Positions 1,591 to 24,367 of a stretch of 32,000 nt of DNA are shown here, piece after piece. The notes beneath the pieces are model-generated. The model made no database searches. It had not been told where the DNA came from and worked only from the letters and a program-made list of their open reading frames with translations. Within the stretch, counting starts at the first letter, position 1. Every line of letters starts with the position of its first letter. The DNA lies in assembly GCA_000830275.1 (NCBI GenBank), contig CP010424.1, positions 630,001 through 662,000 of the forward strand, written 5' to 3'. The DNA is from an archaeon GW2011_AR10. Lineage in GTDB: Archaea > Iainarchaeota > Iainarchaeia > Iainarchaeales > GW2011-AR10. The translations under genes and the position numbers were made by a program.

Positions 1591-1602
1591 GAGTGAAAGG
1601 AA

Positions 1603-2974: not shown

Positions 2975-3083
2975 AGTAGTACCCCCAATCAAAATTTTTT
3001 TTAGAACCCGCCATGTTCTACATCTGAAAGCGATATCAAGGCAAGAATTAATAAGCAGTTTGCACTTTTTTTTATTGGATTTT

Positions 3084-8600: not shown

Positions 8601-10442
8601 CCAGTTGCCAGAGTCAACGAATTTATCCAGAATTACGCGGAAGTTCCTGTGCTCTGAGAACAAGTCAAGAACATCGCCTGTGTTCACCTGCTTTACTCCC
8701 TTGTCATACAGGCCCATATTGACATGCCTGACAATCCATTCAGGAAGGTCGGCTCCCATTTGGTCATCCGCAGTTGTGAGGAACTTTGCAAAAGAACGGC
8801 CATAATCAACAAGGGCTTTTTTCCCTTCAGGGTGCGTTAATGGGTCAATTCCTTGGTCCCTTAGTTTGTTAAAAATATTTGAGTATACTTTCTCTGACTG
8901 TTCCACTTCGTGGAGGCCGCCCCTCCATATTGTCCTCAGGTCTTTCATGACGCGGACAAACTCTGCTTTCTTTTCAAGAGTGTCAATTGATTCAAGGAAT
9001 CCGCCTTTCGCCTGCTGTTTTCCCCACCAGTCAAAGAACTCCTGGGTTTTAATAATTGGGTAGCCTGTGCCATCAGAGCTGCCGATTGTCATGCTCTGCC
9101 AGAAGTCACGCCAGCCGTACTTGTCAATTTTTGACTGCATCCTTGAAACCTTAAGGTCTCCAAGGAAAGAGCCAGGAGTTTCAAATGTTGCCCTGAACCT
9201 GTCAGCGTAATCTGTGAGTTTTCCTTTCAGGCCAGGCAAGAGGCCTCTTCTCGCATTCCAGCCGAACATTTTTTTTGCTGCATAGCCAAGGCTCGGCCCG
9301 AAATTTGTTACAACCATTTCAGCGCTCAGCCACTGGTTAAAGTATTTGTCAAACATCGAGTAAGTTGTTATAATGCAGTCGTTGCTGATGCAGTTGGTGC
9401 CGAATTCTGCGTCAAACTCCTGTGCAAGAATCGAGTTGGGAAGCAACTCTGTTTCCAGTCGAGTTGCGGTTTTAATGTGGTTGGGAAAAGAACATATGCT
9501 GTTATCCCACACCATTCCAGCTGAAGTGCATGAAGCTTCATCTCTTGGGGTTTCAATGCACTCTCCTGTTACCTTGCTGTAAAAGTTTTTTGCTCCATCA
9601 GTGCACTGCTCCTGGGAAACTTCTTTCCAGAGCTCTTCCTGTCCTTCCTCAGTGAAAACCGCTGCTGCCAGAACTTCCTGCTCTTCTGATGTGAACTCTG
9701 GCTTTTCTGTTGAGTTTTCATCAGTGAACCAGCTCTTTATTTTGTCGTATCCGCTGCCGAAAGCTTCCTTGATTGGTTTAAAATCTGCAGCAATTCCTGA
9801 ACCGGAATTTCTGTAAGTGAGGTTTTTTCCTGTAAGCCAGCAGTTCTGGTCGTAGTCCTTGCATCTCCCTGTACGCAGAGAATCATCAAGCACAAGACCG
9901 AAAGCGAAAGGCCCCTTTATGTGCCTGTTCAAGTAATTGCTTATCTCCCAAGGATTAAATTTTTTGTTTGGCAAGTCGGCTTTTGCCGTGACGTTTTCGT
10001 CCTGCTGCGATTTCAGAATGATGTTGTTTTCTTTCAGCTCATCCCTGTCATCAATCTCGTTTTCTGTTTGCTGTGGAAGAGCATCACCGCTTATCTCTTC
10101 TCCAACAAAGCCGTCTTTCAGGAGGTTTAGTATGTTGTTGCTTTCAGTTGGTGTAAGAGAACGGGACTCGCAGACATAACCCCTGTTTGGGAAAGGCGAA
10201 GGTATCGGCACTATAGGAGAAGTTGCAGGAGGAACTGCAGGTATTATTGGAGGGGGTTGTGGCACAGCATCAGGCGTCGGATCAAGCACTGTTGCATCTG
10301 CACCCTGAAATGCGGCAGAATTTTCGTTTTCAGTTGGATTTAAAGGTTCTGGTGCCTGTTCAGCGTAATAGTCCTGCGCGTTGGCAGGATAAGTGCTAAG
10401 CAGAATTATTGCAATCAAGAAAAGGCTTGGAAGTTTCCTCAC
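5613..10442 (-). CDS. Giant (1609 aa) secreted surface protein with a Pro-rich linker and a C-terminal PEP-CTERM-like sorting signal; candidate S-layer protein or adhesin
   Basis: Uninterrupted 4.8-kb ORF with a GTG start. Signal peptide RKLPSLFLIAIILLSTYPANA/QDYY. Pro-rich stretch PTPDAVPQPPPIIPAVPPATSPIVPIPSPFP. The C-terminus is tripartite: ..LPENP, a hydrophobic helix VVLALFIVSLIAVFVYI, and a basic cluster RREKN. I recognise no domain in the body. Confidence 0.9.
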   Translation of the reverse strand: MRKLPSLFLIAIILLSTYPANAQDYYAEQAPEPLNPTENENSAAFQGADATVLDPTPDAVPQPPPIIPAVPPATSPIVPIPSPFPNRGYVCESRSLTPTESNNILNLLKDGFVGEEISGDALPQQTENEIDDRDELKENNIILKSQQDENVTAKADLPNKKFNPWEISNYLNRHIKGPFAFGLVLDDSLRTGRCKDYDQNCWLTGKNLTYRNSGSGIAADFKPIKEAFGSGYDKIKSWFTDENSTEKPEFTSEEQEVLAAAVFTEEGQEELWKEVSQEQCTDGAKNFYSKVTGECIETPRDEASCTSAGMVWDNSICSFPNHIKTATRLETELLPNSILAQEFDAEFGTNCISNDCIITTYSMFDKYFNQWLSAEMVVTNFGPSLGYAAKKMFGWNARRGLLPGLKGKLTDYADRFRATFETPGSFLGDLKVSRMQSKIDKYGWRDFWQSMTIGSSDGTGYPIIKTQEFFDWWGKQQAKGGFLESIDTLEKKAEFVRVMKDLRTIWRGGLHEVEQSEKVYSNIFNKLRDQGIDPLTHPEGKKALVDYGRSFAKFLTTADDQMGADLPEWIVRHVNMGLYDKGVKQVNTGDVLDLFSEHRNFRVILDKFVDSGNWRNFTAEINKYRSAYETDEFGNLILYGFDPATTTEFRALSYSNLERAAKGYANTWVKTDMGEYIHYTDASIPLIQNRIGGNPTIVQGNWGPSKVLTPEELSSALTNARVGSNVLRSKVNTDLMLNTLRERNWVSRRYWSWLDKLAAEEDEIIRSYFSFKGGAKWTVYPFGYWWSKKGAGFEDLSLYQLPDTWSEVDFLLQDKPLYFEAYIDFFANEGSDQGDLFVQVANKLPWKLVLDEVSDKFNPVADFYNKLSGRELRNETESLAFYLTGPNECVDCFVTLNSANLEDFNPFFVVGRPFDAYILEDTRSEDALQKGQTLIAFAHHMDLKGSTGDIEGERIDLHDAWSNEQEEFEARDRGQEFVQPEGEPKTCKQAVFSLPGYATAKKIAPFLPEEGGIGGVLGGIETLAYATFFWPGAFSTVAIQTLYAPKLQDCVDVEEGYFVHYLVPPMEERDDEGNVELSTEKVSNFIGNLNEQITGAFSGSSEDSLVKEQVEGIGNDIKKFVNDSEEKNIVQARLSIQGQSSGQLKGRKLFYFWCGPGCEMSSGEYKTEGKETVKDKTTGKGLDFDFENGKILFDGKPIVENEDAARLAGDDLELSIPAKKVPRTLTTVCLPPTADVAIQVNARGEAFITHPEARACLQDGVMQQTGLPLVGGNNLTSTFGLVNSVITTTHPNIRPLGDRIVAEGVPRKIAVGNISTINVLANNDVALSSSNDGIPEVGSLKSIQFKNGMIVARPDGCYLIWLRHHEQGILEQNDVRGLDTDLTSSTNPENQCEEPALDFQVEGDPNSPANQAKVAAFNTSLKKFGPFQVFETPTKRYVLSSERDETGACKDHLRVIDKETGEIQDFAGTARATPNGLEFIDENGKKHTLDFAAENGVPTVSFDGQKPEVLTSAQGRNGAFYYDPEKGLWYAENAQLLPLIEAFREGISARVGPNNEVTSTASGNVLNLQVGETDKSLLNLPSLPENPVVLALFIVSLIAVFVYIRREKN

Positions 10443-10623: not shown

Positions 10624-11166
10624 TTAAATTTCCGGCCAATAGTAAATGAATGCCAGAGTGCCGCTGATTATCCATTGAGCGAAAAAGAGCACGAATATGG
10701 AGGCAAGCAGTGTTACAATGAAAACCGTTAAGTAGAGCTTCAGTGCCCAGTGGAACTTGAACGACTTCTTGATTTTTTCGTGCAAGAACAGGCCTATGAA
10801 CTCAAGCGGCAAAACAATGAAGGAAAGCACTAATGCAACAACAAGCAGCCTTACAAGCTGAATTAGCGCAATTAAGAGCAGCTCCAGAACAGGAGTCTGG
10901 AATTCAACTGGAGTTTCACCAAATGGATCGCTTTGAAGCAAGGGCAAAGCAGGCTGAAGATACAAAACTAATATTAATGAGAATATTAGTAAATATGTGG
11001 TTATGAATCCTGACTTGAACCAACTCCACTTGTACTTTCCGGCAATGGCCCTGCGCACTTTTGAAGCAAAAAAAACGAAAATGAAAACAGGAACGGAGCT
11101 TATGAAGGAGCCTTTCAGCAAATCAATCAGGGAAAAAACGGTAACCGAAACAAGGTCCTGCACCAT
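10624..11166 (-). CDS. Hypothetical polytopic membrane protein (180 aa)
   Basis: ORF with 4-5 hydrophobic helices and no recognisable motif. Confidence 0.65.
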   Translation of the reverse strand: MVQDLVSVTVFSLIDLLKGSFISSVPVFIFVFFASKVRRAIAGKYKWSWFKSGFITTYLLIFSLILVLYLQPALPLLQSDPFGETPVEFQTPVLELLLIALIQLVRLLVVALVLSFIVLPLEFIGLFLHEKIKKSFKFHWALKLYLTVFIVTLLASIFVLFFAQWIISGTLAFIYYWPEI

Positions 11167-13369: not shown

Positions 13370-14155
13370 TTACCTGCACGCTGAAGAATCAAAGTGCTCA
13401 ATGCCTGCTTCAATGCAGCACCACTCAGAACTCTTAAAGTAGGGAACAGAACCTACTTCTGTCGCATCCCACAAAACCAAATCTGCCTGCGTTTCAAATG
13501 GCCTGAAAGTTATCTCGTCCTCTGCAACCATTGTTATTTTGGCTGAAGCCTGCGCTGTGTCGCCAACCCGGATAATAAGGTCTTTCAGGCTGTTGTTGAT
13601 TGTGCCAAAGTCAGCATTTTCCCCAATGCTGCACAGCAAATCAGTTCTTGGAGGGTCATCAGCAACAAAGTTTGGAAACCTCCCTGTTCCAATGTTCTCA
13701 AAGTTTGTTTTGTGGAAAAAAATGAAGATGAATTTCTGCCTCACATCCTCTTGGTCTCTTGGAACAGAAAGATAGAAAATGTAATCAAAGTTGTCTCCAA
13801 GAGGAGCCATTATTGAATTGATGTCCTGCGCTAAAATCAGCATTGTTTTCTCTGTGAGGTAGCGCTTGTCGGCATAATCTTCCTTCACATAAGCAAGCAG
13901 CTGGTCAATTTCAACTTCACTACTTAAGCCGTAAATTGAGCTGTCTGGGTTTCTTGGAGTGCTGCTGTAAAGAATTGTTTTAAGGGCATCCGTTGCAAAA
14001 TCAGAATTGTAGTTCTGCACTATCTGCGCTGAAACAGTGTTGCCGTATCCATTGGAGAAAGAGAAAAGGAAAACGCTGATTGAGGTAACTATCAGGAGAA
14101 AGTAAAGAGCATCTGTTACTGCTGCTTGGCCTCTGTTTTCCTTTAAGGCATCCAT
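13370..14155 (-). CDS. Pilin-like protein with an archaeal class III signal peptide (last gene of the pilus operon)
   Basis: N-terminus MDALKENRG/QAAVTDALYFLLIVTSISVFLF, that is [K/R]-G-Q followed by a hydrophobic helix. Overlaps the upstream gene by 13 nt. Confidence 0.75.
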   Translation of the reverse strand: MDALKENRGQAAVTDALYFLLIVTSISVFLFSFSNGYGNTVSAQIVQNYNSDFATDALKTILYSSTPRNPDSSIYGLSSEVEIDQLLAYVKEDYADKRYLTEKTMLILAQDINSIMAPLGDNFDYIFYLSVPRDQEDVRQKFIFIFFHKTNFENIGTGRFPNFVADDPPRTDLLCSIGENADFGTINNSLKDLIIRVGDTAQASAKITMVAEDEITFRPFETQADLVLWDATEVGSVPYFKSSEWCCIEAGIEHFDSSACR

Positions 14156-14682
14156 GTAACCACCACCAAGTGCATTGGCTTAATAACCCTGTTGTCTTCA
14201 ACTGCAATCGGGTAAATCCTTGCAACAATTTCTTTGTCGGCAAAAAAACGGTAAGCAAAGCTAGGGGAAGAAGAAATGTCGCTGTTAATTGCAGGGTCAA
14301 TGTTGTGGCATGAGAACTCGTTGCCTGCTTCATCCAAGAAAAAGCCCACGTTGTATAGCCTTGCATCCTGGGCATTGTATTGCAGGCTGTATTGGTCTGT
14401 GGCAGTATAATAGTTTGTTATTCCCGCGCGGAATTTAAGGTTTGGAATGCTGAGTGTACTGCACAGCGCTTTGAAGTTCTCGTAGCCACTTATATAGCTT
14501 GTGCCTTTAAGGACTTTGGCAATTTTTATCACTTTGATGTCAGAATCGAACTTGGAGTTTTTATTGTCAAAGACACCGAAAGCGAAAGTAAAGGTTGAAA
14601 AAAACATTATCAGCGCGAAGAGCAGTGGAATCAGGGAAGGCAGGTCATCTCCAATCGGCCCCAAAAAACCTTTATTCAGCAA
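14143..14682 (-). CDS. Pilus-operon accessory protein with an N-terminal hydrophobic anchor (weak pilin-like signal)
   Basis: TTG start overlapping the upstream stop (TTGCTGA). N-terminus LNKG/FLGPIGDDLPSLIPLLFALIMFFSTFTFAF. Confidence 0.65.
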   Translation of the reverse strand: MLNKGFLGPIGDDLPSLIPLLFALIMFFSTFTFAFGVFDNKNSKFDSDIKVIKIAKVLKGTSYISGYENFKALCSTLSIPNLKFRAGITNYYTATDQYSLQYNAQDARLYNVGFFLDEAGNEFSCHNIDPAINSDISSSPSFAYRFFADKEIVARIYPIAVEDNRVIKPMHLVVVTWMP

Positions 14683-15344
14683 GTGAAACCAACCCCTGGG
14701 TAAACGCTTTCACCCACGCTTGATTTTATGGCATTGCATGTCGGGCCAACGCTGCATGGAAAAATGTAGAGGGAGCTTTGCCCCCTCTTGATTTCCTTAA
14801 CTAACTGAATTGAATCCATTGGAACTCTGGCCTGAGGGTCAATGTAAACAGATTCCCCTGTGTCAGTGGCCAGTTCGCGGAGTGTTCCAATTCCCCCGTA
14901 CTCGTCACCCAAATAGTCTTGGCTGAAAAGGGTTACTTCTGCTTTTGTTTCAAAGGATTTTGCTGCAATTGCTTTTGGAATGTAGGAAGGGTCATTAATT
15001 GATTTCACGAGGTCGCGCCTCGGGAAAACCGAGAAAATAACTTTCGAGATTGTTTCAGGGCCTGAGGGAAGCTCTTTCTCAAACTGCGTTACACTTATTT
15101 TCATCACATAGTAGAATTCTTGGCCGCTTACATCAAGGGAGCGCGGGAATGTATGTGAATCAGAAAAACAGTAAGCGGGGGAAGAAGCAACACTGCTTGC
15201 TTTGGTGAGAACCCTGTCAAGCAACAGCTGTGCTTCCTTCACCTTGACTATGTCGATTAAGCCGAAAGTGAAGAAGGCAACGATTGCAAAAATTGATACC
15301 ACAAGTATCAAGAGATTCATTTTGCTTAAAATGAAGCCAAGCAT
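14676..15344 (-). CDS. Pilus-operon accessory protein with an N-terminal TM anchor
   Basis: ATG 15344 (MLGFILSKMNLLILVVSIFAIVAFF) is preceded by GAGGG with a 6-nt spacer, and it lies 2 nt after the upstream TGA. The ORF track extends the ORF to TTG 15368. Confidence 0.65.
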   Translation of the reverse strand: MLGFILSKMNLLILVVSIFAIVAFFTFGLIDIVKVKEAQLLLDRVLTKASSVASSPAYCFSDSHTFPRSLDVSGQEFYYVMKISVTQFEKELPSGPETISKVIFSVFPRRDLVKSINDPSYIPKAIAAKSFETKAEVTLFSQDYLGDEYGGIGTLRELATDTGESVYIDPQARVPMDSIQLVKEIKRGQSSLYIFPCSVGPTCNAIKSSVGESVYPGVGFTC

Positions 15345-15346
15345 TG

Positions 15347-15892
15347 TCAAACCCTCTTGTAAACGCAAATCCTTGGCTGCGGGGAGAACAAGTGGAACTG
15401 CTTGATTAAAGTGTACTGGCCGGGCTCAATTGCTTCGTCTTTCTTCCATTCCTTTACTTTAAATTCTGTTGGCTGGTCGTCAAAGTCGTGGCAGACTGTT
15501 GCGGAAGGAAAATCCGTTGCAGAAGAAATGTTAAGACACTTTATTGAACTGAAGTCAGGCGAGGAAAACAAAAGCAGAGTGCATTCATAGCGCAACCCGC
15601 CACAATGAAAAGAGCAAGTGGCCCGGTCATCCCTGCTGACAATCCTCAGCGAGCTATCATTCTGGTTAAAGCAGGACGGCATATCGTATGCAACAGTTTT
15701 TTTGCCTTCGCCTTTTGCAACTGTTTCAAGCGCAGTCTTCAATTCCTCCATGTTCTGGTCAATTTTGCCTTCACACTGCGCTCTCAGCAAAGTGCTCATT
15801 GCATTGAGCCCTACAACTATCACAAAAGTCATTGTTATTACTGCAATCAGCAGCTCGAAAGGGGCTGCTTCCTGGCCTTTCTGGCTGAGCAT
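15347..15892 (-). CDS. Pilin-like protein with an archaeal class III signal peptide
   Basis: From ATG 15892: MLSQKG/QEAAPFELLIAVITMTFVIVVGL. A TATA-like element TTTATATA (complement of 15917-15924) lies about 28 nt upstream. The ORF-track start at 15943 adds a spurious-looking extension. The mature part is Cys-rich. Confidence 0.75.
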   Translation of the reverse strand: MLSQKGQEAAPFELLIAVITMTFVIVVGLNAMSTLLRAQCEGKIDQNMEELKTALETVAKGEGKKTVAYDMPSCFNQNDSSLRIVSRDDRATCSFHCGGLRYECTLLLFSSPDFSSIKCLNISSATDFPSATVCHDFDDQPTEFKVKEWKKDEAIEPGQYTLIKQFHLFSPQPRICVYKRV

Positions 15893-16001
15893 GGTAACAA
15901 GAATACTGTAAAGAGATATATAAAGATTCTCAGAATCAATCAACAGGTATTGAGGGCAAGCATTATGAGCTGTTTGTGTTACTGTAAAAAAACGCAGTGT
16001 T

Positions 16002-16533: not shown

Positions 16534-17082
16534 TTAACTTGCCGGAATAATGCTTACAAGGCAAATCCTTTCAGTGTTTGAGGGGTCAAATATTGCTGTT
16601 CCACCGCCACAAAAGCTGTTGTAGCCGGAAAACACTGTGTCAAGCCTTGCTTCTAGGACGGTTTCCTCAACCCTGTTCGCGTTATCGCAGAGCACGTATA
16701 GCTTCTGCTGCTGGTCAGAGTTGCCGTTGTAGCGAATCCAAGAGCCTTGAGCAACTTCCTCATAGTTAGGGTTGCTTCCTGAAACAGTGTCAGAAATTAA
16801 AACGCAAAGCTGGTGCTCTCCAAGCGAACCAGTTTTTTCTGCAATTGTCCTTGACCTCAGGCTTGTGCCGTTCTTGAATGTTACTAATCCTGTTCTTTCA
16901 GGCGTGCCCAAATTGTTGATGAGTGTCTTAATTTTTGAGGACGCTTCCTCTGTGGGGTCGCCTTGGCTTGGGGGCGCAATCTGCGTTAAAATCTGCAGCA
17001 GAATTGTGAGAATGAATACTGCAACAATTGCTGCAATCAACAGCTTGAAAACGCTGAAAGCCTGCCCTCTCTCATTCAACAT
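16534..17082 (-). CDS. Pilin-like protein with an archaeal class III signal peptide
   Basis: N-terminus MLNERG/QAFSVFKLLIAAIVAVFILTILLQIL. TATA-like TTTAAATA (complement of 17112-17119) is centred about 33 nt upstream of the ATG. It is a paralog of 17148..17612 (shared ..KGT..A.[KR]TG..Q.CV.I.. block). Confidence 0.8.
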   Translation of the reverse strand: MLNERGQAFSVFKLLIAAIVAVFILTILLQILTQIAPPSQGDPTEEASSKIKTLINNLGTPERTGLVTFKNGTSLRSRTIAEKTGSLGEHQLCVLISDTVSGSNPNYEEVAQGSWIRYNGNSDQQQKLYVLCDNANRVEETVLEARLDTVFSGYNSFCGGGTAIFDPSNTERICLVSIIPAS

Positions 17083-17147
17083 AGCAATCGTAAATAGAAA
17101 CTCTTAACCCATATTTAAAGGTTTTGCTTTAATTCGGCTATAAACAG

Positions 17148-17612
17148 CTAAGGCGTAATTGGTTTAGAGAAAGAGAACTTGCAGCAGATTTCGCAGGTTG
17201 AATCGCAAAAGGAGGCAGGGTCAAGGTTTGTTGTGCACTGCGCGTAAAAGTTTGTTTCAATGCGGTAATTTACCAGTATTCTTTGCGAGTCAACAGTGAA
17301 AGAGGAACTGCTTGGAGCAAGAATTTCAACGCATTGCCCCTCTAATCCTGTTCTTCTTGCAAGAAAATCTTTAGTATAAACTGTGCCTTTGTCGAAGAGG
17401 AGGTTTTCAACAACAAGAATGTCATTGTTTGGCTGCTGCACCGCGTTCTCTAATCCTTCAAGAAAACGCTCTTTGCTCACGTTTATTTTGAACTCCTCAA
17501 AGGAACGGATTGCACCGAGAATTATTAATAAAATCAGCAGCGCAACTATTGCGCCAATCATCATCTTGAACGGCTCAAACTGCCCTTTCTCCATACTAAA
17601 AACATCTCCCAA
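17148..17612 (-). CDS. Pilin-like protein with an archaeal class III signal peptide
   Basis: N-terminus ..MEKG/QFEPFKMMIGAIVALLILLIILGAI. The start is either TTG 17612 or ATG 17594. The C-terminus is Cys-rich. Confidence 0.8.
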   Translation of the reverse strand: MGDVFSMEKGQFEPFKMMIGAIVALLILLIILGAIRSFEEFKINVSKERFLEGLENAVQQPNNDILVVENLLFDKGTVYTKDFLARRTGLEGQCVEILAPSSSSFTVDSQRILVNYRIETNFYAQCTTNLDPASFCDSTCEICCKFSFSKPITP

Positions 17613-17633: not shown

Positions 17634-19991
17634 TTAAGCCAAAAATCCGCCGACGAGAATGTTGGAAATAATTATGCTTAAAACGAAAATTATAACTGAA
17701 ATTGGGAAAAAGCGCGCAATGTTTATTCTCACCAGCAAATCGTTGTCCTCCTCTATTTTGGTGGTGAAGTAAGTCATTATGAGGAGAAGCTCCACAACGT
17801 AGATTGCAACGATGATTACGAACTGCGTTGGAGTAGCCATTCCAGCAACTGCTGCCGGGTCAATGAAGCTTCCAACGTTTATGCCAGAAAACGTGTTTGG
17901 AATGCCTGCTCCTCCTGGAACATCAAGGTTGCTCAGATCAAGTTCCGTTGCAATATTGGAAGAAGCGATGGAGGAAAGGGTTATTATTACGATTTTCTGC
18001 AGGCTTGTTGTAATGCCCAAAACCATCGGCGCAATGAATAGGCTCATTGTCTTCATCATTCCTGTTACATCAGAAACCAAAATCTTCAAATTGTTTGCAA
18101 CCTTTTCCGCGTTGTCGAGCTGGATGCTTAACGCAATCATTGTCCTGGCAGCAACGTTCACCCCCAATTGCACTGAATCAACAAGCAGCCTCACTGAACC
18201 GCTAATCAACGAGCTTGGAATGTTTTTCAATGAACCATAGTTTGGGTCAAAGAATGCCTGCTCTAATGGCATTGCAAGCAAGGCAATGTTGTCAAGCGTT
18301 TTCGAGAAAATCCTTTTCGATATTTTGAACTGTGGCAAAAAATCCATTGTGTGCTTTAATGCTTCCTCCACCGGCTTGTTTTCACCCATGCGGGAAGCAA
18401 GAATGTAGATTGAGTCCTTGAACTCTGACTCCATTTCAACAATTTCAAGCTGGGCTTTCCGCTTGTAAATGTTGTTGTAGTAGAGGTAAACAAACACTGA
18501 AAGTGAAACGGTTATGAGCAGGCCGAAAATGAAATTGTAGGGAGTAATATCGTTGGCCGGCTTCGTGAAAAATGCCTGTTCCTCGCTTTTCACGCGTTTC
18601 TCTGCTTCCTCAACAGGAAAACCCTGCGCAATCAGCTCATTGTAAAGCACTCCTGTGGGAATGTCAAAGTATTTCAATTGGTAGCCTGCTTTTGAAAGAA
18701 CTTCAGTCCTTTGCTTGTCTAATGCAAGCAGCTGCGGCGTGCCTTCCTCAAGGCCCAAAGCATCGTAAAGAATTTTTGGCGGAACTCCTTGCTGTGAAAC
18801 AAAAAAGGAAATTGAGCTTCCTGCAATCAACACAACAACAACCACGAAGAAAATGCTCACAAAGCCGTTGCCTAACCTCATTGTGCCCTTCGGCGGCAAA
18901 CCCGGAAAGTTGTCCTTTATTTCAGGCGCAACATACGTTGGTGGGCGCTTGCTTATAACGGAGAAAGCAAACCAAAGCGTAACCAAAGGAATTATTATGT
19001 TGTAAATGGCAAACAAAACAATTGGGTTTGCAAGCGGTGCGCCGCTGAAAGAGCTCCCTACAGGAAGAATGATTATCAGAATCAATGGAAGCAGCACCCC
19101 AACATAGAAGAGAATCATTGTTGGCTGGTTGAGGTCGCGAGCATACTGCTCCATTTTGTTTTTTATTGACTCAAGTATTTCATCCATTGTTTGGTCAAGC
19201 AAAGCAAAACGCTTTGCTTCAGTTGTTTCAATCACTGAAGCGCGGATTCGCATCAACGCTTTCTTGAATTCATCGCTGAATGCACCCCAGCGGTAAGCCA
19301 GTGCATCGCTTGCTTCTGCAACAGACGAGTAAACTCCCAACTGGACATCCCACAAAAGTTTTTTGAAGTCTTCAGCAATTTTGCCCCTGCCGTGCTCTGC
19401 TGCAAACTCAATGCTTTTCTCCAGGTTCGGGCTTAACTTCATTGACATAACCATGTAGCCGAGGATTTCAGGAACATAAGTCAAAGCACGCACCTGCTCT
19501 GCTCTTGCCTCCTCCAAGGGATAGTTTTGAACATAATATGTTGCAAAAACCACCATGCCAAGCAATGGGAGGAGAATGTAGATTGGCGTAAGAAAGGTTG
19601 CCCCGCCAACGAATAGGTTTACAACCACTATTGCAGGGGACAGGAAAATAATTCCTGCAATTACTATTGCAGCAAGAAAGCTCACAATCAGCACGAACTT
19701 GTACGCTGCACCAAGCTCTTCCCCATTTAGCTCCCAACCCAGAAACTCCACTGCCTTCTTGTTCTGCTCTGAAAGCGCTTCACCTTTTCCTAGTGAAGGA
19801 GCCATTGCGTGAATGCGCTTGCAGAACCTAACAAAAGGGTGCTGTTTTCTCCTTACAAGCGTTCTTTCCTCATTCTTGAACTCGTCCTTGACCACGGCTA
19901 TTTCCCTGTAAAGCTCTCCAATAGAGCTTGGCCCATCAAACAGCTTCTCTTCTTCTTCCTGCTCTCTTTCTTCCCTGTCTTTTCTCGCCAT
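17634..19991 (-). CDS. FlaJ/TadC/PilC-like polytopic platform protein (785 aa, two T2SSF-like domains)
   Basis: Many TM helices. Two soluble T2SSF-like segments are present: ..LTYVPEILGYMVMSMKLSPNLEKSIEFAAEHGRGKIAEDFKKLLWDV.. and ..FKDSIYILASRMGENKPVEEALKHTMDFLP... It sits directly downstream of the ATPase. Confidence 0.85.
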   Translation of the reverse strand: MARKDREEREQEEEEKLFDGPSSIGELYREIAVVKDEFKNEERTLVRRKQHPFVRFCKRIHAMAPSLGKGEALSEQNKKAVEFLGWELNGEELGAAYKFVLIVSFLAAIVIAGIIFLSPAIVVVNLFVGGATFLTPIYILLPLLGMVVFATYYVQNYPLEEARAEQVRALTYVPEILGYMVMSMKLSPNLEKSIEFAAEHGRGKIAEDFKKLLWDVQLGVYSSVAEASDALAYRWGAFSDEFKKALMRIRASVIETTEAKRFALLDQTMDEILESIKNKMEQYARDLNQPTMILFYVGVLLPLILIIILPVGSSFSGAPLANPIVLFAIYNIIIPLVTLWFAFSVISKRPPTYVAPEIKDNFPGLPPKGTMRLGNGFVSIFFVVVVVLIAGSSISFFVSQQGVPPKILYDALGLEEGTPQLLALDKQRTEVLSKAGYQLKYFDIPTGVLYNELIAQGFPVEEAEKRVKSEEQAFFTKPANDITPYNFIFGLLITVSLSVFVYLYYNNIYKRKAQLEIVEMESEFKDSIYILASRMGENKPVEEALKHTMDFLPQFKISKRIFSKTLDNIALLAMPLEQAFFDPNYGSLKNIPSSLISGSVRLLVDSVQLGVNVAARTMIALSIQLDNAEKVANNLKILVSDVTGMMKTMSLFIAPMVLGITTSLQKIVIITLSSIASSNIATELDLSNLDVPGGAGIPNTFSGINVGSFIDPAAVAGMATPTQFVIIVAIYVVELLLIMTYFTTKIEEDNDLLVRINIARFFPISVIIFVLSIIISNILVGGFLA

Positions 19992-20005: not shown

Positions 20006-22285
20006 TCAAGACTTTGTTTTGGCAATTATTCCCTTAATTAAGTGGTTTTTTACCCAGTTCTTCCACTCGCCCAGAACCTCTTCGTAGTCAACGGAACCGT
20101 GTTCTTCAAGCTGGTCCTCCTTCAATAGCATGAGCTTGTTGTTTGCAAGAACCGCGTTTTCTGCTTCAAGCAGAGAAGGAATTGAATTCTTGTTCTTCAT
20201 TTCCACCAAAAACTCTTTTGCCGAGCCATTCATTCTTATGCTCCTCCAGATTTCTTCAAGGTTGAGGCCGCTCATCTTGCTTATCTTTGAGAACATCTCG
20301 CTTTCCTTAAGGTTGTCTTCAAGCAGTTCAAGCTCGTCTTTTTTTGCGTCATAACTCATTAGGTCCAGCAAACCGCCCTCTCTTTCAGGATCCTCAATCC
20401 AGTGCTTTTTCACCTCTGTTATCTGGACAATTCTCCTGTTCCTCTGCAGTGACCCGGAAAACCTTATCGGCCTTGCAACCACGACAACATCAGTTGCCTT
20501 AAACGAAGTGTTTGGAACATCCAAGTCATTCACTACCCTATCCCACACAGAGTAAGCGCTTTCACCGTGGATTGTTCCCATCACAATGTTTCCCGCAGCA
20601 CCAATTCTCATTGCCTCGTACAGAACCCTTGCTTCCTTGCTCCTCACTTCACCTATGATTAGGGCAGAATCTCCCAAACGAAGCGCTGTCCTCAAAGCTT
20701 CCTCTGGCGCAACCTCAGAGGAAGTGCCGCCAGCAGCAATAGGTGAACGCGTTTTAAGCCTCTGGATGTTGAAGCCTATGTTCTTCATGTAAGGAACTGG
20801 AAGTTCCAAGGTGTCTTCCTGCACAATTATTCTCGTGCTCTGGATAATTTCAAGGATTAGTGCCTGCATCAAAGAAGTTTTTCCGCTGCCCCTTGAACCA
20901 GTAACCAGCATTGTTGCCTGTGCGTCAACGAAAAAAGAAAGCAGGCCTGCTGAAAGAGGAGTTAAAAATTTCACGTCAACAAACTGGGGCAGCGTCCAAG
21001 GAGTAACCTTATGCAGCCTGAAAGCAAACGCGATTCCGCTCGGCGCAAGCGGCGGGCCAATGACTGCAACCCTTGTCTCCATGTCAGGCAAATCAAAGTC
21101 CAGGACTGGATGAGCTTCATCAAATGGCCTGCCTGACATTGCACGCATTTTTGATACAAGCGAACTTGCCTCTCCTTCAGTGTAAAGAATGTTGGTTTCG
21201 CACTGGCCAAAGTCAGAGTGAATAACGTAAAGCGGCTTCTGCCCGATGGGAGAATCAATGAAAATGTCTGTGAGGTTCCTGTCAGAGAGCAGCAGTTCAA
21301 GGATTCCGTAGCCGACAGTGTACCTTGCAACAATCTGGCTTAACTCAATTATTTCATCGTTGCCAAGAGAAATATTGTTCTCTTTCGCGATGTCCTTGAT
21401 TGTTGACTGGTAAACGCGCTCAAAGTACTTCCTGCTTTTCGCAAGCTCGCTTAAAGAGGTTTTTCCAGGCCTGTACGATGCAACGATTTCCCTTGTCTTG
21501 CTCAAAATGAAGTACTTGTCCGGGGGCAGGGAATACTCTGGGGGATTGACAATGTAAAGCTTCTGCGGCTTGTTCGGGTGCTTGAATATCTGCACTGTTG
21601 TATCCTTCACTTGGTATTCGTCCAGAAGCTCCAGCTTTTCCTCTTCTTCAAACAGCAGCCTTGAACCGATAAAGGAGGGTTTTACCTGCGCTTCAAAGAA
21701 CGGCTTGTACATTTCTTTTGTGTCAGGAACTGTTTTCAGCTTCAAAAGAATCTGTTTGGCTTTCTGGACAAGCATTGTGCTGTCAAGGTTCTTCTTTATG
21801 TAAAGCAGGGTGCGAAGGTAAACATCAGAGTAATGCTCTTTGTCCTCAGAGCTAAAGCGCTCCCTTTCCTTGCTGATGGCGCGGAGCAGTTCAAGGTAAG
21901 AATAAATCGGGTCAAACAACAGGGTATCGTGAGTGATTTTAACAATAGTGTTGTGCCTTTCACCGAAGTCTTTTTCGCCCTCAATTTTTGCATCCCCTAA
22001 AAACTTGTAGCTCCACACGCTTTCAATCTCTAATTTTTGCGCAACCCTCGAAATTTCCTCCAGAAGCTTTTTCTGCTCCTCGCTGTAAACCCTTTCGTAC
22101 ACTTCAGCCAAAACAATGTCGTCAACTTCCACTTCTTGAAGCAGGCTGAAGACATGGTACCTGCATGCAGGGTCATCAGCGATTGAGGAACTATAAACGC
22201 AGTCGCGACAGTCAAAAATCAGGTGCCTCTTGTTGCCTTCCTCTTTAACCGCCCAAGGGCCTACTTCAAAACCGCCGATTTTCAA
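20006..22285 (-). CDS. Type IV pilus/archaellum-family assembly ATPase (FlaI/PilB-like, 759 aa) with a long N-terminal extension
   Basis: Walker A GSRGSGKTS, Asp box RIIVQEDTLE, Walker B ALIIGEVRSKE, His box GTIHGES. TTG start preceded by AGGTGA with a 6-nt spacer. N-terminal Cys cluster FDCRDCVYSSSIADDPACRYH. Confidence 0.9.
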   Translation of the reverse strand: MKIGGFEVGPWAVKEEGNKRHLIFDCRDCVYSSSIADDPACRYHVFSLLQEVEVDDIVLAEVYERVYSEEQKKLLEEISRVAQKLEIESVWSYKFLGDAKIEGEKDFGERHNTIVKITHDTLLFDPIYSYLELLRAISKERERFSSEDKEHYSDVYLRTLLYIKKNLDSTMLVQKAKQILLKLKTVPDTKEMYKPFFEAQVKPSFIGSRLLFEEEEKLELLDEYQVKDTTVQIFKHPNKPQKLYIVNPPEYSLPPDKYFILSKTREIVASYRPGKTSLSELAKSRKYFERVYQSTIKDIAKENNISLGNDEIIELSQIVARYTVGYGILELLLSDRNLTDIFIDSPIGQKPLYVIHSDFGQCETNILYTEGEASSLVSKMRAMSGRPFDEAHPVLDFDLPDMETRVAVIGPPLAPSGIAFAFRLHKVTPWTLPQFVDVKFLTPLSAGLLSFFVDAQATMLVTGSRGSGKTSLMQALILEIIQSTRIIVQEDTLELPVPYMKNIGFNIQRLKTRSPIAAGGTSSEVAPEEALRTALRLGDSALIIGEVRSKEARVLYEAMRIGAAGNIVMGTIHGESAYSVWDRVVNDLDVPNTSFKATDVVVVARPIRFSGSLQRNRRIVQITEVKKHWIEDPEREGGLLDLMSYDAKKDELELLEDNLKESEMFSKISKMSGLNLEEIWRSIRMNGSAKEFLVEMKNKNSIPSLLEAENAVLANNKLMLLKEDQLEEHGSVDYEEVLGEWKNWVKNHLIKGIIAKTKS

Positions 22286-22540: not shown

Positions 22541-23776
22541 ATGCGGTTCGGCGAAGTGTTAAAGAATTCATTCACCCTGTGGCTGAAGGACAAAAAGAGC
22601 CTTATATATGTTCTTGCATTAATTGGATTGTTTGCGGTTCTCGCAGCTGGATTGATTGCTTTTCTTGCAATTGGTTCTTTGACTAACTCGATTAGATTTA
22701 TTGAAGGTTCGGACTTAACCCAAGTGGCCCTTTCAGATGACGGAAACATCATCTTCCTGGCAATTGCGGCAATTGTTTTGCTCTGCGCTTTTATAGTGTT
22801 TTTTGTAGGCACATTCTATGTGTCAGCCTTGCTGGAGGTTCGAGCGCTGCAGCTGCTGGGCTTTAACACCGCGCGGTTCGGGCTAATTAAATTCGTCAAG
22901 CTTGTTCTATTCCAGATTTGGGTTTCAATCATGGCCTACACTTCATGGTACAACAAGGTGTTCTTCTACTATCTAATCGGGCTGATTCTCTTCTGGGTTA
23001 CATCAATCGGCGTGTTTTTGCTGATTGAGCGCATCGGAAACATTTTGCTTTTATTGGCAACACTGCTTTCAGCTGTCTACCTTTTACCTGTTATATACAA
23101 CACAATTAGGCTGAGCATTGCTTCCGCCATTTATCTCCATGAGGACTTTGGGATTATGAAGGCAGGAAGGGCCGCATGGGAGCTAGCGCACAAGAAAGTG
23201 CTTGGAATATTCATTGCATTCCTGCTGGTGCAGATTGCAATTCAAATATTACTAATCATACCTTGGTTTGTCTTAATTATTGCGGCAAACGTTGCCCTGC
23301 TTTTGACAGGCATAGAACTCTTAGCAATTGCAATTGCTTTCACAGGAATGGCCTTGATAATTATTTTTGCTATTGTTGTTTCATCTTTTGCAGTGCCAAG
23401 CATTTACTCGGAAGTGAAAAACAGCCCGAGCGAGCAGCCACCTGCCCCAAGTGGTTTGCCGAAAAATACAACTGCCCTTACAACAATGCAAACCAATGAG
23501 CCGATTGAAAGAATGCGCGCATCAATCCAAAGGCAGGAGCCAGTTTACTCTCAGCCACAAAGGCAACAGAGCTATGCAAGGCGCAGCCCTGCAGCTGCTG
23601 GGCTTTCAGCGGTTGAAAAAGCGCATGTGAACAAGCTTGCTGCAGTGCTGAAAGACGTTTCCCACCGCTACAAGGAATCGGAAATAAGGCAAGTAATAAA
23701 GGAAAAGAATTACTCTGACAGAATAGCGGATGAAACAATCAAGCTGCTCCAGAAAGACCTTAAAAACAGCAAATGA
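22541..23776 (+). CDS. Hypothetical polytopic membrane protein with a Q/P-rich cytoplasmic tail
   Basis: 411-aa ORF with about 7-8 hydrophobic helices and a hydrophilic C-terminal ~110 aa. No motif recognised with confidence. Confidence 0.7.
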   Translation: MRFGEVLKNSFTLWLKDKKSLIYVLALIGLFAVLAAGLIAFLAIGSLTNSIRFIEGSDLTQVALSDDGNIIFLAIAAIVLLCAFIVFFVGTFYVSALLEVRALQLLGFNTARFGLIKFVKLVLFQIWVSIMAYTSWYNKVFFYYLIGLILFWVTSIGVFLLIERIGNILLLLATLLSAVYLLPVIYNTIRLSIASAIYLHEDFGIMKAGRAAWELAHKKVLGIFIAFLLVQIAIQILLIIPWFVLIIAANVALLLTGIELLAIAIAFTGMALIIIFAIVVSSFAVPSIYSEVKNSPSEQPPAPSGLPKNTTALTTMQTNEPIERMRASIQRQEPVYSQPQRQQSYARRSPAAAGLSAVEKAHVNKLAAVLKDVSHRYKESEIRQVIKEKNYSDRIADETIKLLQKDLKNSK

Positions 23777-23809
23777 TTTAAAAACAAGGGAACTGCATGA
23801 TTTTAGTTA

Positions 23810-24367
23810 ATGCACAAAAAATTTGAATTTCTGAGTAAAACTTTTTCAGAGAAAGAAATACTTAAAGCAGGAAAGTTTCTTTTGGGCTTAGCTGCATACT
23901 TCATTGCGCTGAGCTTTCTTGTTTCACTGGTGCCGCTGGAATTGGTTGAATTCTTTTTTGCATCAGTTTCACTTTTCTTTCTTGGGTTTTTTGGCTTTTC
24001 GGGAGAACTGGTTTTCACGGAACCAGTTATCATGCAATTGCAGGGCTTGGAGCAAGGAATTGCAATAACCTATCTTTGCACTGGCCTGCTGGAACTGGTG
24101 CTGCTTGTTTCAGCTGTTGCCTCCTCGTTCGGCATTGAATGGAAAAAAAGAATTATTGGAGTTATTGCTGGCGCAATTGCATTGGTTGCGTTCAACGTTT
24201 TCAGGATAGTTTCAAGCATTCTGATTATTCTTTGGTTTGGTTTGGAGGCAGGTGGCTTTTCGCATGACCTGTTGTTCAGGGTTTTTTTGTTTGCAACCGT
24301 TGCCGGCTACTATTTTGTGTGGTTTAACTGGGCCACAAGACTAAAAAAACTGAATTCCACCTTATAG
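23810..24367 (+). CDS. Minimal exosortase/archaeosortase-family protein (185 aa)
   Basis: A multi-TM protein carrying the family's three signature positions in the expected order and spacing: Cys90 in ITYLCTGLLEL (C-[ST]-G), Arg132 in AFNVFRIV (N-x-x-R), and His152 in GGFSHDLLF. Confidence 0.75.
   Translation: MHKKFEFLSKTFSEKEILKAGKFLLGLAAYFIALSFLVSLVPLELVEFFFASVSLFFLGFFGFSGELVFTEPVIMQLQGLEQGIAITYLCTGLLELVLLVSAVASSFGIEWKKRIIGVIAGAIALVAFNVFRIVSSILIILWFGLEAGGFSHDLLFRVFLFATVAGYYFVWFNWATRLKKLNSTL

What the first reader, a model, noticed from the sequence alone, without database searches (positions are those of the whole stretch)
23810..24367. Minimal (185 aa) exosortase/archaeosortase-family protein, candidate partner for the giant protein's C-terminal signal
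Seen: a small multi-TM protein with Cys90 (YLCTG), Asn129-x-x-Arg132 (FNVFRI) and His152 (FSHD) in the order characteristic of the exosortase/archaeosortase catalytic core.

Established knowledge: the family uses a Cys/Arg/His arrangement for transpeptidase-like C-terminal processing.

Inference: it is much shorter than ArtA or EpsH-type enzymes, so it may represent a stripped-down variant. Its only visible candidate substrate in the window is the 1609-aa protein about 13 kb away.
Basis: partly seen in the sequence, partly recalled or inferred. Interest (0 to 1): 0.6.

Follow-up and report, generated by a model that had tools for sequence, protein, structure and literature searches.

The report
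Short archaeosortase beside a pilus locus
This is a genuine, already-annotated short archaeosortase from a DPANN archaeon (Iainarchaeota); it probably trims and anchors one conserved giant surface protein, and it sits at the edge of a conserved type IV pilus gene island.

Summary
The 185-aa ORF at 23810-24367(+) is real. It passes the curated exosortase/archaeosortase signature model (TIGR04178, 39.7 bits against a cutoff of 23). Cys90, Asn129, Arg132 and His152 are invariant in 24 relatives. The identical protein is already annotated as "exosortase/archaeosortase family protein" in archaeon GW2011_AR10. Its size is not unusual, because many named subfamilies are 150-200 aa. It fits none of them, so it is an uncurated clade that in the genome scan was found only in Iainarchaeota.

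The proposed partner is supported but not proven. All 31 full-length orthologs of the 1609-aa protein end in NLPSLPE, a TM helix and a basic tail. The motif is in the 98th percentile of conservation within the protein and touches the helix without a spacer. Among 1.84 billion representative proteins this tail occurs only in this one family. That suggests a dedicated one-to-one system.

The two genes lie 8-17 kb apart in five genomes. In four of them they flank the same type IV pilus cluster. The archaeosortase stays linked to that cluster in 31 of 37 loci, even after rearrangements.

Verdict: a new variant of a known kind, of moderate interest.

The parts
23810..24367 (+). Archaeosortase-family gene (185 aa) belonging to an uncurated clade that the genome scan found only in Iainarchaeota
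   Evidence: ORF. TIGR04178 scores 39.7 bits against a cutoff of 23. All 24 clade members pass TIGR04178 and none reaches a subfamily cutoff. The identical protein P0001 is named 'exosortase/archaeosortase family protein'.
24065..24331 (+). Conserved catalytic core (aa 86-174) containing Cys90 (24077-24079), Asn129 (24194-24196), Arg132 (24203-24205) and His152 (24263-24265)
   Evidence: Extent of the TIGR04178 match. The residues are invariant in alignment A1. Codons verified.
23777..23784 (+). TTTAAAAA, a possible archaeal TATA-like box 26-33 nt upstream of the ATG; this is an inference by eye only
   Evidence: Sequence read directly. No tool for archaeal promoters was available.
5613..10442 (-). 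1609-aa secreted giant protein, the candidate dedicated substrate: Sec-type signal peptide, large ectodomain, C-terminal tripartite tail
   Evidence: ORF. 36 homolog clusters. Signal peptide and single C-terminal TM. No Pfam, NCBIfam or PDB match.
5688..5708 (-). NLPSLPE signature motif (aa 1579-1585), the candidate cleavage/recognition motif
   Evidence: Present in 31 of 31 full-length orthologs. Information content is 3.78 bits per column, the 98.3 percentile of all 7-mers in the protein. It abuts the TM helix in the AF2 model. Coordinates verified.
5616..5684 (-). TM helix (PVVLALFIVSLIAVFVYI, 5631-5684) followed by the basic tail RREKN (5616-5630)
20006..22285 (-). FlaI/TadA-like type IV filament ATPase, usually divergent from and close to the archaeosortase in other genomes
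   Evidence: PF00437 T2SSE. FlaI/TadA-like NCBIfam hits. Found near the archaeosortase in 23 loci.
17634..19991 (-). Type IV filament platform protein (T2SSF-like, 785 aa)
   Evidence: PF00482 at 24.6 bits, marginal. Linked to the archaeosortase in 25 loci.
16534..17612 (-). Two type IV pilin genes (182 aa and 154 aa) with class III signal peptides
   Evidence: N-termini of the KGQAFSVFKLLIAAIVA type. In L029 and L031-L037 the pilin gene lies 94-330 bp from the archaeosortase.
13370..15943 (-). Four overlapping pilin-like genes (198, 230, 179 and 261 aa). The 179-aa one (14143-14682) has an invariant N-terminal (K/R)GFxGPIGDDLPSLIP + TM.
10624..11166 (-). 180-aa polytopic membrane protein next to the giant gene. 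A gene of similar size and position (177-187 aa) recurs in L040, L042, L043 and L044; their homology to the window's copy was not tested.
   Evidence: Its only tblastn homolog among the first 39 loci is in L034. No family match.
22541..23776 (+). 411-aa polytopic membrane protein 33 bp upstream on the same strand. It is a variable neighbour, with homologs in the same position in 6 other loci.
   Evidence: No Pfam or NCBIfam family.

Best explanation
The ORF encodes a functional archaeosortase. This is a polytopic membrane cysteine endopeptidase, possibly a transpeptidase, of the exosortase/archaeosortase family. It belongs to a short-form clade that the genome scan found only in Iainarchaeota (formerly Diapherotrites, DPANN) and that has no curated subfamily model.

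Cys90, Arg132 and His152 lie near the same-side ends of three consecutive helices. I infer that this is the outer face of the membrane.

Its most likely job is dedicated, one-to-one processing of the conserved ~1500-1600-aa secreted protein encoded 13.4 kb away. After Sec export that protein is held in the membrane by its C-terminal helix. The enzyme recognises the NLPSLPE motif at the outer end of that helix and removes the helix and the basic tail. By analogy with ArtA, the new C-terminus is then joined to a membrane lipid.

In four of the five genomes where both genes can be placed on one contig, they sit at opposite ends of a conserved type IV pilus-like gene island. The system is therefore probably part of a coordinated cell-surface module.

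Shown: family membership, residue invariance, conservation and exclusivity of the tail, and synteny. Inferred: cleavage, lipid attachment, active-site side, and the enzyme-substrate pairing.
For: Family membership:
- TIGR04178 scores above its cutoff for the window protein and for all 24 clade members.
- C90, N129, R132 and H152 are invariant.
- The Cys-to-Arg spacing of 42 residues compares with 41 in ArtA (C173 to R214, numbering from PMC9263693).
- The family triad is described as Cys/Arg/His (Haft preprint).
- The AF2 model is confident and helical.

Active-site side:
- Segments 42-87 and 142-153 contain no Lys or Arg.
- The N-terminus, the KKR loop at 112-114 and the C-terminus are basic.
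- Homologs carry basic N- and C-terminal extensions.

Substrate:
- It is the only tripartite C-terminus in the window.
- The tail is kept in 31 of 31 full-length orthologs down to 29% identity.
- The motif is in the 98.3 percentile of conservation, between a more variable linker and a TM helix conserved mainly in composition.
- The motif abuts the helix after a ~45-residue disordered linker, as described for exosortase/archaeosortase signals.
- An exhaustive profile search of 1.84 billion proteins finds the tail only at the extreme C-terminus of this one family.

Linkage:
- Both genes share a contig in five genomes, 8.0-17.0 kb apart (window; with 14).
- The giant gene lies at one end of the same pilus cluster in the window, L040, L042, L043 and L044.
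- The archaeosortase is linked to that cluster in 31 of 37 loci.
Against: - The two genes are never adjacent; they are 8-17 kb apart.
- A tail restricted to one protein family could be conserved for reasons unrelated to a sortase, such as oligomerisation or contact with the pilus machinery.
- A genome-wide phyletic co-occurrence test could not be run, and only 32 kb of the 1.24-Mb genome was visible, so other substrates cannot be excluded.
- The tail matches no curated sorting-signal model.
- In 12 loci the gene immediately downstream of the archaeosortase is a different ~2750-aa protein without a canonical signal. The archaeosortase's closest persistent neighbours are pilin genes.
- Alignment of C90/R132/H152 to ArtA's mutated residues was not shown residue by residue. 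ArtA's third critical residue is Arg253, not His.
- No exosortase structure exists for comparison.
Confidence: 0.55

Rival explanations
1. It is a genuine archaeosortase, but its real substrates are other proteins encoded elsewhere in the genome, carrying a signal not visible in this window. The 1609-aa protein simply stays anchored by its TM helix, and its NLPSLPE motif serves another purpose.
For: - Only 32 kb of a 1.24-Mb genome could be inspected.
- Several loci have other large proteins with a C-terminal TM + basic tail but different juxtamembrane sequences next to the archaeosortase: L012 (1680 aa downstream), L018 (1357 aa), L034 (1123 aa), L033 (528 aa), and L039 (a 205-aa secreted protein whose stop overlaps the archaeosortase start).
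- The enzyme and the giant gene are 8-17 kb apart, not adjacent.
- Some family members, such as XrtG, which 23 of 24 clade members resemble weakly, have no known C-terminal signal. This last point is from my own recollection of the family descriptions.
Against: - Those alternative tails share no motif with one another and score at noise level against the tail profile.
- None of them is conserved across loci, whereas the NLPSLPE tail is invariant across the whole clade's range and is as conserved as the best parts of the protein.
- Both genes stay on the same contig in all five cases that can be assessed.
Confidence: 0.27
2. The enzyme works within the type IV pilus-like system itself. It would process or anchor pilus-associated proteins, namely the pilin-like 179-aa protein and/or the ~2750-aa protein, possibly through a shared [LI]PS[LF]xP-plus-helix module, and would not act as a classical C-terminal sorting enzyme.
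For: - Linkage to pilus genes survives rearrangement. There are four different gene orders, and a pilin gene lies 94-330 bp away in the most divergent loci.
- A ~2750-aa protein is the immediate same-strand downstream gene in 12 loci.
- The [LI]PS[LFI]x?P motif abutting a hydrophobic helix occurs in 23 ORFs that all belong to three unrelated families of this island. Control motifs give 0-4 hits.
- The motif is invariant in 13 of 13 orthologs of the 179-aa protein.
Against: - In the two N-terminal cases the motif follows a (K/R)G. It therefore looks like part of a class III (prepilin) signal, which is cleaved at the cytoplasmic face, whereas the archaeosortase active site is inferred to be on the outer face.
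- The pilins have no C-terminal TM helix.
- The motif pattern was defined post hoc.
- The ~2750-aa gene is absent from the window.
- Conserved synteny in small DPANN genomes may reflect co-regulation of surface genes without a shared mechanism.
Confidence: 0.1
3. It is not a functional enzyme: either a chance motif arrangement in a generic membrane protein, or a degenerate pseudo-enzyme.
For: - Pfam PF09721 scores just below its gathering threshold for this copy (22.5 against 25.7 bits).
- There is no experimental data for any member of the clade.
Against: - The signature HMM gives E = 4.5e-10 and scores above its cutoff in 24 of 24 members.
- Cys, Arg and His are strictly invariant across 41-66% identity.
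- The ORF is intact and is conserved in 39 species-representative genomes.
- Precomputed Pfam hits to PF09721 exist for the identical protein.
Confidence: 0.03

Closest known systems
[quoted passage not shown]
   Same: - Same enzyme superfamily (TIGR04178).
- Conserved Cys and Arg at the same spacing: 42 residues here, 41 in ArtA.
- The candidate substrate is a large Sec-exported surface protein with a motif + TM + basic C-terminus, and the motif abuts the helix.
- The expected outcome is removal of the helix and lipid anchoring.
   Different: - ArtA is much longer and has its own subfamily model, which this protein does not match.
- The motif is NLPSLPE, not PGF.
- ArtA serves from one to 52 substrates per genome (nine in Haloferax volcanii), whereas this tail occurs in a single protein family.
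- The host is a DPANN archaeon, not a euryarchaeote.
- The linkage to a type IV pilus locus was not found described for ArtA in the papers consulted.
- PssA/PssD-type lipid partners were not seen in the window.
Short-form exosortases and archaeosortases (ArtB, ArtD, XrtH, XrtG, XrtX/XrtY, XrtF, pacearchaeosortase, heimdallarchaeosortase)
   Same: - Same size class: the models are 150-199 positions long.
- Collinear, near full-length alignment, for example XrtX positions 41-164 of 168, XrtH 31-155 of 158 and ArtB 9-150 of 156.
   Different: - Scores are 12-35 bits against subfamily cutoffs of 80-170 bits, so it is a member of none of them.
- Their cognate signals (VPXXXP, PIP, IPTL and others, from my own recollection) differ from NLPSLPE.
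- The tail scores below cutoff for the Loki-CTERM, Heimdall-CTERM, PIP-CTERM and PEP-CTERM models.
Dedicated one-to-one sorting systems as defined by Haft (for example JDVT-CTERM with its myxosortase MrtJ)
   Same: One target protein per genome, with enzyme and target encoded near each other, instead of many unrelated proteins sharing the signal (criteria quoted).
   Different: - Those examples use an unrelated protease family (CPBP/Rce1-like) and are bacterial.
- There the genes are typically consecutive. Here they are 8-17 kb apart and, in four of the five genomes, on opposite flanks of a pilus cluster.
Gram-positive sortase-assembled pili (conceptual comparison only)
   Same: A sorting transpeptidase is genetically coupled to a surface filament locus.
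   Different: - The enzyme fold is unrelated.
- The filament type is unrelated: covalent LPXTG pilin polymers there, a type IV (class III signal peptide) system here.
- Nothing here shows that the archaeosortase acts on pilins.

Membership tests
Exosortase/archaeosortase superfamily (NCBIfam TIGR04178; Pfam PF09721) | Match to the curated signature HMM above its trusted cutoff | tested here: met
   TIGR04178 scores 39.7 bits against a cutoff of 23, E = 4.5e-10, over aa 86-174. 24 of 24 clade members match.
Exosortase/archaeosortase superfamily (NCBIfam TIGR04178; Pfam PF09721) | Pfam Exosortase_EpsH gathering threshold | tested here: inconclusive
   22.5 bits against a gathering score of 25.7 for this copy. 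However, precomputed PF09721 hits are on record for the identical protein and for 13 relatives.
Exosortase/archaeosortase superfamily (NCBIfam TIGR04178; Pfam PF09721) | Nearly invariant Cys, Arg and His, in that order, on successive transmembrane helices | tested here: met
   C90, R132 and H152 (plus N129) are invariant in alignment A1. They lie at the start of helix 88-104, in the distal third of helix 111-143 and at the start of helix 145-184. The triad is as stated. A residue-by-residue alignment to ArtA could not be made.
Exosortase/archaeosortase superfamily (NCBIfam TIGR04178; Pfam PF09721) | Polytopic integral membrane protein with the active site at the extracytoplasmic face | tested here: inconclusive
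   The polytopic helical fold is shown. The outer-face location is inferred from charge distribution only.
Exosortase/archaeosortase superfamily (NCBIfam TIGR04178; Pfam PF09721) | Co-occurrence with proteins that carry a cognate tripartite C-terminal signal | tested here: inconclusive
   Both genes share a contig in the five genomes where both could be placed. The tail is conserved and family-exclusive. A genome-wide phyletic profile could not be run.
Exosortase/archaeosortase superfamily (NCBIfam TIGR04178; Pfam PF09721) | Endopeptidase or transpeptidase activity on the signal | not testable with these tools
   Needs biochemistry or genetics.
Named subfamilies (XrtX, XrtH, XrtG, XrtY, ArtB, XrtF, ArtD, heimdallarchaeosortase, pacearchaeosortase, XrtM) | Score at or above the subfamily model's curated cutoff | tested here: not met
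   The window protein's best subfamily scores are 11.7-34.7 bits against cutoffs of 80-170 bits. Across the clade, no subfamily match (including single-member hits to ArtF, XrtA and XrtP) has an E-value better than 4.8e-13, consistent with scores far below those cutoffs.
Curated C-terminal sorting signals (PGF-CTERM, PEP-CTERM, PIP-CTERM, Loki-CTERM, Heimdall-CTERM, LPXTG and others), tested on the 1609-aa protein's tail | Match to a curated signal model above its cutoff | tested here: not met
   The window tail scores 13.6 bits on Loki-CTERM against a cutoff of 19.9. Of 28 tails, 4 hit Loki-CTERM (best E = 0.016) and at most 2 hit any other model, all at weak E-values (0.013 or worse).
Generic tripartite sorting signal (Haft criteria), tested on the 1609-aa protein's tail | [quoted passage not shown] | tested here: met
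   All 42 profile hits lie at the extreme C-terminus.
Generic tripartite sorting signal (Haft criteria), tested on the 1609-aa protein's tail | The signal is shared by otherwise unrelated proteins in one genome (one-to-many) | tested here: not met
   Every hit is a member or a fragment of one protein family. Only the 'dedicated system' variant of the criteria can therefore apply.

The most novel reading that the evidence does not exclude
The archaeosortase is an integral part of a type IV pilus-like surface organelle module in Iainarchaeota. It would recognise an [LI]PS[LF]xP-plus-helix module shared by three unrelated island-encoded proteins: the 1609-aa giant protein, a 179-aa pilin-like protein and a ~2750-aa protein. 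Sortase-type processing would then be mechanistically coupled to type IV filament assembly, a combination I did not find described for any archaeon or bacterium in the papers searched.
Probability: 0.1. Interest if true: 0.75.

Novelty: new variant of a known kind. Interest (0 to 1): 0.42.

Why it matters
Archaeosortase biology rests almost entirely on one enzyme, ArtA, in haloarchaea. Reviews describe archaeosortases as a feature of a subset of Euryarchaeota.

This work defines a clade, found here only in Iainarchaeota (DPANN), with a candidate new cognate signal, NLPSLPE-CTERM. The signal occurs on a single, unusually well conserved ~1500-aa surface protein of unknown fold. The clade is also linked to a type IV pilus island.

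DPANN archaea are thought to depend on surface contact with other cells, so the way their largest surface proteins are anchored is directly relevant to that lifestyle.

In practice, the result provides the material for two new curated models, one for an enzyme subfamily and one for a sorting signal. It also provides a clean one-enzyme, one-substrate pair, which would be simpler to reconstitute than ArtA with its many substrates. The gene itself is already annotated and its chemistry is expected, so the advance is incremental unless the pilus coupling proves to be mechanistic.

Tried and rejected
1. A tail-profile search of the 5.8-billion-protein word-indexed database returned only one fragment (P0083), and even known orthologs failed the E-value bar. 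It was uninformative. The exhaustive representative search replaced it.
2. A tblastn of the archaeosortase against plasmids, meant to recover annotated relatives for a catalytic-residue alignment, found no match.
3. The PDB sequence search with the archaeosortase profile and the Foldseek search with the AF2 model found no relative. The best Foldseek E-value was 0.93 with TM-score 0.32. No solved fold is available for comparison.
4. A PDB sequence search with the giant protein and a Foldseek search with its C-terminal model gave only generic beta-propeller noise, with TM-scores of 0.12 or less.
5. The primary papers Haft 2012 and Abdul Halim 2018 are not held. I relied on secondary statements.
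6. I considered the ~2750-aa downstream protein as an HVO_0405-style substrate with an internal signal. I rejected this because its internal hydrophobic patch has no Pro motif and no basic cluster.
7. I considered the L039 205-aa protein that overlaps the archaeosortase as a second carrier of the same tail. It scores only 5.3 bits (E = 2.1) against the tail profile.
8. I considered the pilins as classical substrates. I rejected this because they have no C-terminal TM helix.
9. tRNA and Rfam scans of the window found nothing.
10. Model coordinates are not exposed, so Cys-Arg-His distances could not be measured.
11. The P0066/P0011 look-ups returned different short contigs, so no distance could be derived for that genome.
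Full report
**Observation**

The window contains an ATG-to-stop ORF at exactly 23810-24367 on the plus strand, encoding 185 aa. Translating the individual codons confirms four residues:
- Cys90 in YLCTG
- Asn129 and Arg132 in FNVFRI
- His152 in FSHD

Hydropathy shows five hydrophobic segments. An AlphaFold2 model built from 24 homologs is confident (mean pLDDT 89.1, pTM 0.79). It shows helices 14-39, 43-60, 88-104, 111-143 and 145-184, with a small beta hairpin at 65-86.

**Family membership**

The curated NCBIfam signature model for the exosortase/archaeosortase family (TIGR04178) matches residues 86-174. The score is 39.7 bits against a trusted cutoff of 23, with E = 4.5e-10. Pfam PF09721 falls just short for this copy, at 22.5 against 25.7 bits. 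However, precomputed PF09721 hits are on record for the identical protein.

That identical sequence is already in public databases as [quoted passage not shown]. The neighbouring giant protein is named as coming from archaeon GW2011_AR10, on a contig of 1,241,428 bp.

There are 46 clusters of relatives, 119-214 aa long. In an alignment of 24 of them (41-66% identity), C90, N129, R132 and H152 are invariant. They are the only invariant Cys, Arg and His. All 24 pass TIGR04178.

The literature describes the family's presumed triad as Cys/Arg/His. In ArtA, Cys173, Arg214 and Arg253 are essential. The Cys-to-Arg spacing is 41 residues in ArtA and 42 here. I could not produce a residue-by-residue alignment to ArtA, because the primary papers and a solved structure were unavailable.

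**The protein is not a new "minimal" form**

The curated models for ArtD, XrtM, ArtB, XrtH, pacearchaeosortase, XrtX/XrtY, XrtF, XrtG and heimdallarchaeosortase are 150-199 positions long. The protein aligns almost end to end with several of them.

What is distinctive is that it reaches none of their cutoffs. The best subfamily scores are 12-35 bits against cutoffs of 80-170 bits. A scan of one genome per species found 39 loci, all from Iainarchaeota/Diapherotrites assemblies or unclassified archaeal MAGs, including Ca. Iainarchaeum andersonii. It is therefore an uncurated clade that this scan found in no other phylum. No paper in the searchable library connects archaeosortases with this phylum.

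**The candidate substrate**

A scan of all ORFs in the window shows that the 1609-aa protein (5613-10442, minus strand) is the only genuine ORF with a motif + TM + basic C-terminus. It has three parts:
- a Sec-type signal peptide (MRKLPSLFLIAIILLSTYPANA|Q)
- a large ectodomain with no Pfam, NCBIfam or PDB match
- a single C-terminal TM helix

It has 36 homolog clusters at 29-50% identity. All 31 full-length ones end in [FL][LF]N[LI]P[SG][LIMV]P[E/T/K/Q/D], then about 20 hydrophobic residues, then a Lys/Arg-rich tail.

The NLPSLPE heptad carries 3.78 bits per column, which is the 98.3 percentile of all 7-mers in the protein. It sits between a more variable linker (2.75 bits) and a TM helix conserved mainly in composition (2.24 bits).

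In an AF2 model of the last 560 residues, a confident beta-rich domain is followed by a ~45-residue disordered linker. The motif lies directly against the TM helix. This is the arrangement described for exosortase and archaeosortase signals, in contrast to LPXTG signals. The tail matches no curated sorting-signal model; only scattered sub-threshold hits appear.

**One-to-many or dedicated?**

An exhaustive profile search with the tail alone against 1.84 billion representative proteins gave 42 hits, every one at the extreme C-terminus. All the shorter hits are C-terminal fragments of the same family.

Locally, in about 640 kb of Iainarchaeota DNA, only the seven orthologs of the giant protein score. 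Nothing else reaches E < 0.5. The tail is therefore exclusive to one protein family. By Haft's criteria it can qualify only as a dedicated, one-to-one system, for which the expected evidence is co-occurrence and nearby genes.

**Genomic linkage**

The archaeosortase and the giant gene lie on the same contig in five genomes:

| Genome or contig | Distance |
|---|---|
| Window (AR10) | 13.4 kb |
| GCA_974426465.1 | 15.2 kb |
| ERZ909605 contig | 16.1 kb |
| SBBR01000005.1 | 17.0 kb |
| L039 | 8.0 kb |

In four of these five genomes they are the two flanks of one conserved island; L039 has no recognisable pilus genes between them. In the window, L040, L042, L043 and L044 (giant orthologs down to 29-35% identity) the gene order running toward the giant gene is:
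1. FlaI/TadA-like ATPase
2. T2SSF-like platform protein
3. two class III pilins
4. a ~55-aa single-TM ORF
5. four pilin-like genes
6. two opposite-strand genes
7. a ~180-aa membrane protein
8. the giant protein

L043 and L044 are cut short at the ATPase end, so they show only part of this order. The ATPase and platform assignments rest.

The archaeosortase lies beyond the ATPase. Of 37 loci with enough flank, 31 show pilus genes within 10 kb of the archaeosortase. Four of the six exceptions simply lack upstream sequence.

The linkage survives rearrangement. Four arrangements are seen:
- divergent from the ATPase (the majority)
- co-directional at the end of the pilus operon (L029, L031)
- upstream of the pilin gene (L032, L034)
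- paired with a pilin gene alone (L011, L033, L035-L037)

The pilins themselves have class III signal peptides and no C-terminal TM helix, so they are not classical substrates.

**Topology (inference)**

Segments 42-87 and 142-153 contain no Lys or Arg. The N-terminus, the KKR at 112-114 and the C-terminus are basic. Homologs carry long basic N- or C-terminal extensions.

This places C90 (start of helix 3), R132 (distal third of helix 4) and H152 (start of helix 5) together on the outer face. That is where the giant protein's motif must sit, given its Sec signal peptide and its basic C-terminal tail.

**Complications**

First, in 12 loci the gene immediately downstream of the archaeosortase, on the same strand, is a different ~2700-2950-aa protein. 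It has no C-terminal TM helix. Its internal hydrophobic patch is not a tripartite signal, and it has no homolog in the window. Its conserved N-terminus, (K/R)GIP(S/A)(F/L)PF followed by a helix, looks like a long-leader class III signal.

Second, the 179-aa pilin-like ORF (14143-14682) has an invariant N-terminal (K/R)GFxGPIGDD(L/I)PSLIP followed by a helix in 13 of 13 orthologs.

A regular expression for [LI]PS[LFI]x?P abutting a hydrophobic helix hits 23 ORFs. All of them belong to just these three unrelated island families, while permuted controls give 0-4 hits. The pattern was chosen post hoc. In the two N-terminal cases the motif should face the cytoplasm. I therefore record this as unexplained and not as evidence, but it keeps a more integrated sortase-pilus mechanism alive at low probability.

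**Verdict**

- The family assignment is correct, but it is already in the public annotation.
- The "stripped-down" idea is not supported.
- The partner hypothesis is plausible and now has specific support: a conserved, family-exclusive tripartite tail, and co-location on opposite flanks of a conserved pilus island. It remains unproven without a genome-wide phyletic test or an experiment.

I rate it as a new variant of a known kind: an uncurated archaeosortase subfamily with a candidate new dedicated signal in DPANN archaea. Interest is moderate.

Noticed in passing
L014 10662-19196; L025, L026, L030, L031, L033, L035-L038, L041 (10755-18992); L039 11456-20305: A homologous ~2700-2950-aa protein is the immediate same-strand downstream neighbour of the archaeosortase in 12 loci. 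It has a conserved ~45-aa N-terminal leader ending in (K/R)GIP(S/A)(F/L)PF followed by a TM helix, which resembles a long-leader class III signal. It has faint CarboxypepD_reg, SdrD_B and Big_1 hits and no C-terminal TM helix. It is absent from the window.
   Followed up: partly
window 14143-14682 (-), 5688-5708 (-); loci as above: An [LI]PS[LF]xP motif directly abutting a hydrophobic helix occurs in three unrelated families of this island: C-terminal in the giant protein, N-terminal in the 179-aa pilin-like protein and N-terminal in the ~2750-aa protein. It occurs nowhere else in about 270,000 residues of ORFs. Control motifs give 0-4 hits. The pattern was defined post hoc.
   Followed up: partly
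window 14143-14682 (-): The 179-aa pilin-like protein has a strictly invariant N-terminus, (K/R)GF(I/L/V)GPIGDD(L/I)PSLIP followed by a TM helix, in 13 of 13 orthologs. This is much more conserved than an ordinary class III signal peptide, and no curated family matches it.
   Followed up: partly
window about 16329-16487 (-): A small ~52-aa single-TM ORF (MGFPELGERAQGEWSSIYLIIIFIIAALLLIALIKPMFKKSQEIVKRQPLIN) lies between the pilin genes. It recurs as a 54-56-aa gene in the same position in L040, L042 and L044, and similar sequences occur in several other loci.
   Followed up: partly
window 25707-28757 (+): A 1016-aa secreted protein combines N-acetylmuramoyl-L-alanine amidase (Amidase_3, 117.6 bits), a PKD domain and a weak glucosaminidase match below its cutoff (24.1 against 30.2 bits). 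This looks like a bacterial peptidoglycan hydrolase in a DPANN archaeon, which hints at attack on, or scavenging from, bacterial cell walls.
   Followed up: no
window 24362-24949 (-): A PIN-domain toxin and a MazE/AbrB-like antitoxin pair lie immediately downstream of the archaeosortase on the opposite strand. The pair overlaps the archaeosortase stop codon region by 6 nt. It occupies the position where many other genomes have the ~2750-aa gene.
   Followed up: no
window 30-2517 (+) and 3060-3830 (+): A second type IV filament set (a T2SSE ATPase fragment and two T2SSF proteins) and a PAC2-family gene lie on the far side of the giant gene. The same arrangement recurs in L040, L042 and L043.
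   Followed up: partly
window 25132-25716 (+) and 29884-30477 (+): Two apparently paralogous ~195-aa proteins each have an N-terminal TM helix and end in ...GECA or ...EGAC. Each precedes a large secreted protein (1016 aa and 481 aa). Both hit the same ORF in L027.
   Followed up: no
window 5613-10442 (-), roughly aa 1000-1040; P0051 aa 884-902; P0081 aa 929-947: The giant protein has a conserved internal hydrophobic stretch (...TFFWPG(A/V)FS(T/S)VAIQ...APxLQDCVD). It passes a TM threshold in some orthologs but not in the window's copy. It could be a buried core segment or a membrane-interacting loop.
   Followed up: partly
L039 9280-9897 and 9878-10534: In the most divergent locus the archaeosortase start overlaps the stop of a 205-aa secreted protein that has its own C-terminal TM + basic tail (KNPSILPILLIATLIVAILFRRELKNEKQKD). 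It is not significantly similar to the NLPSLPE tail profile.
   Followed up: yes
L041 7267-8838; window 22541-23776 (+): The space between the pilus ATPase and the archaeosortase holds variable polytopic membrane proteins. Two different families recur immediately upstream, in 7 and 5 loci; the second includes the DUF7544-annotated gene of L041. L041 also has a PrsW-protease-domain protein there.
   Followed up: partly
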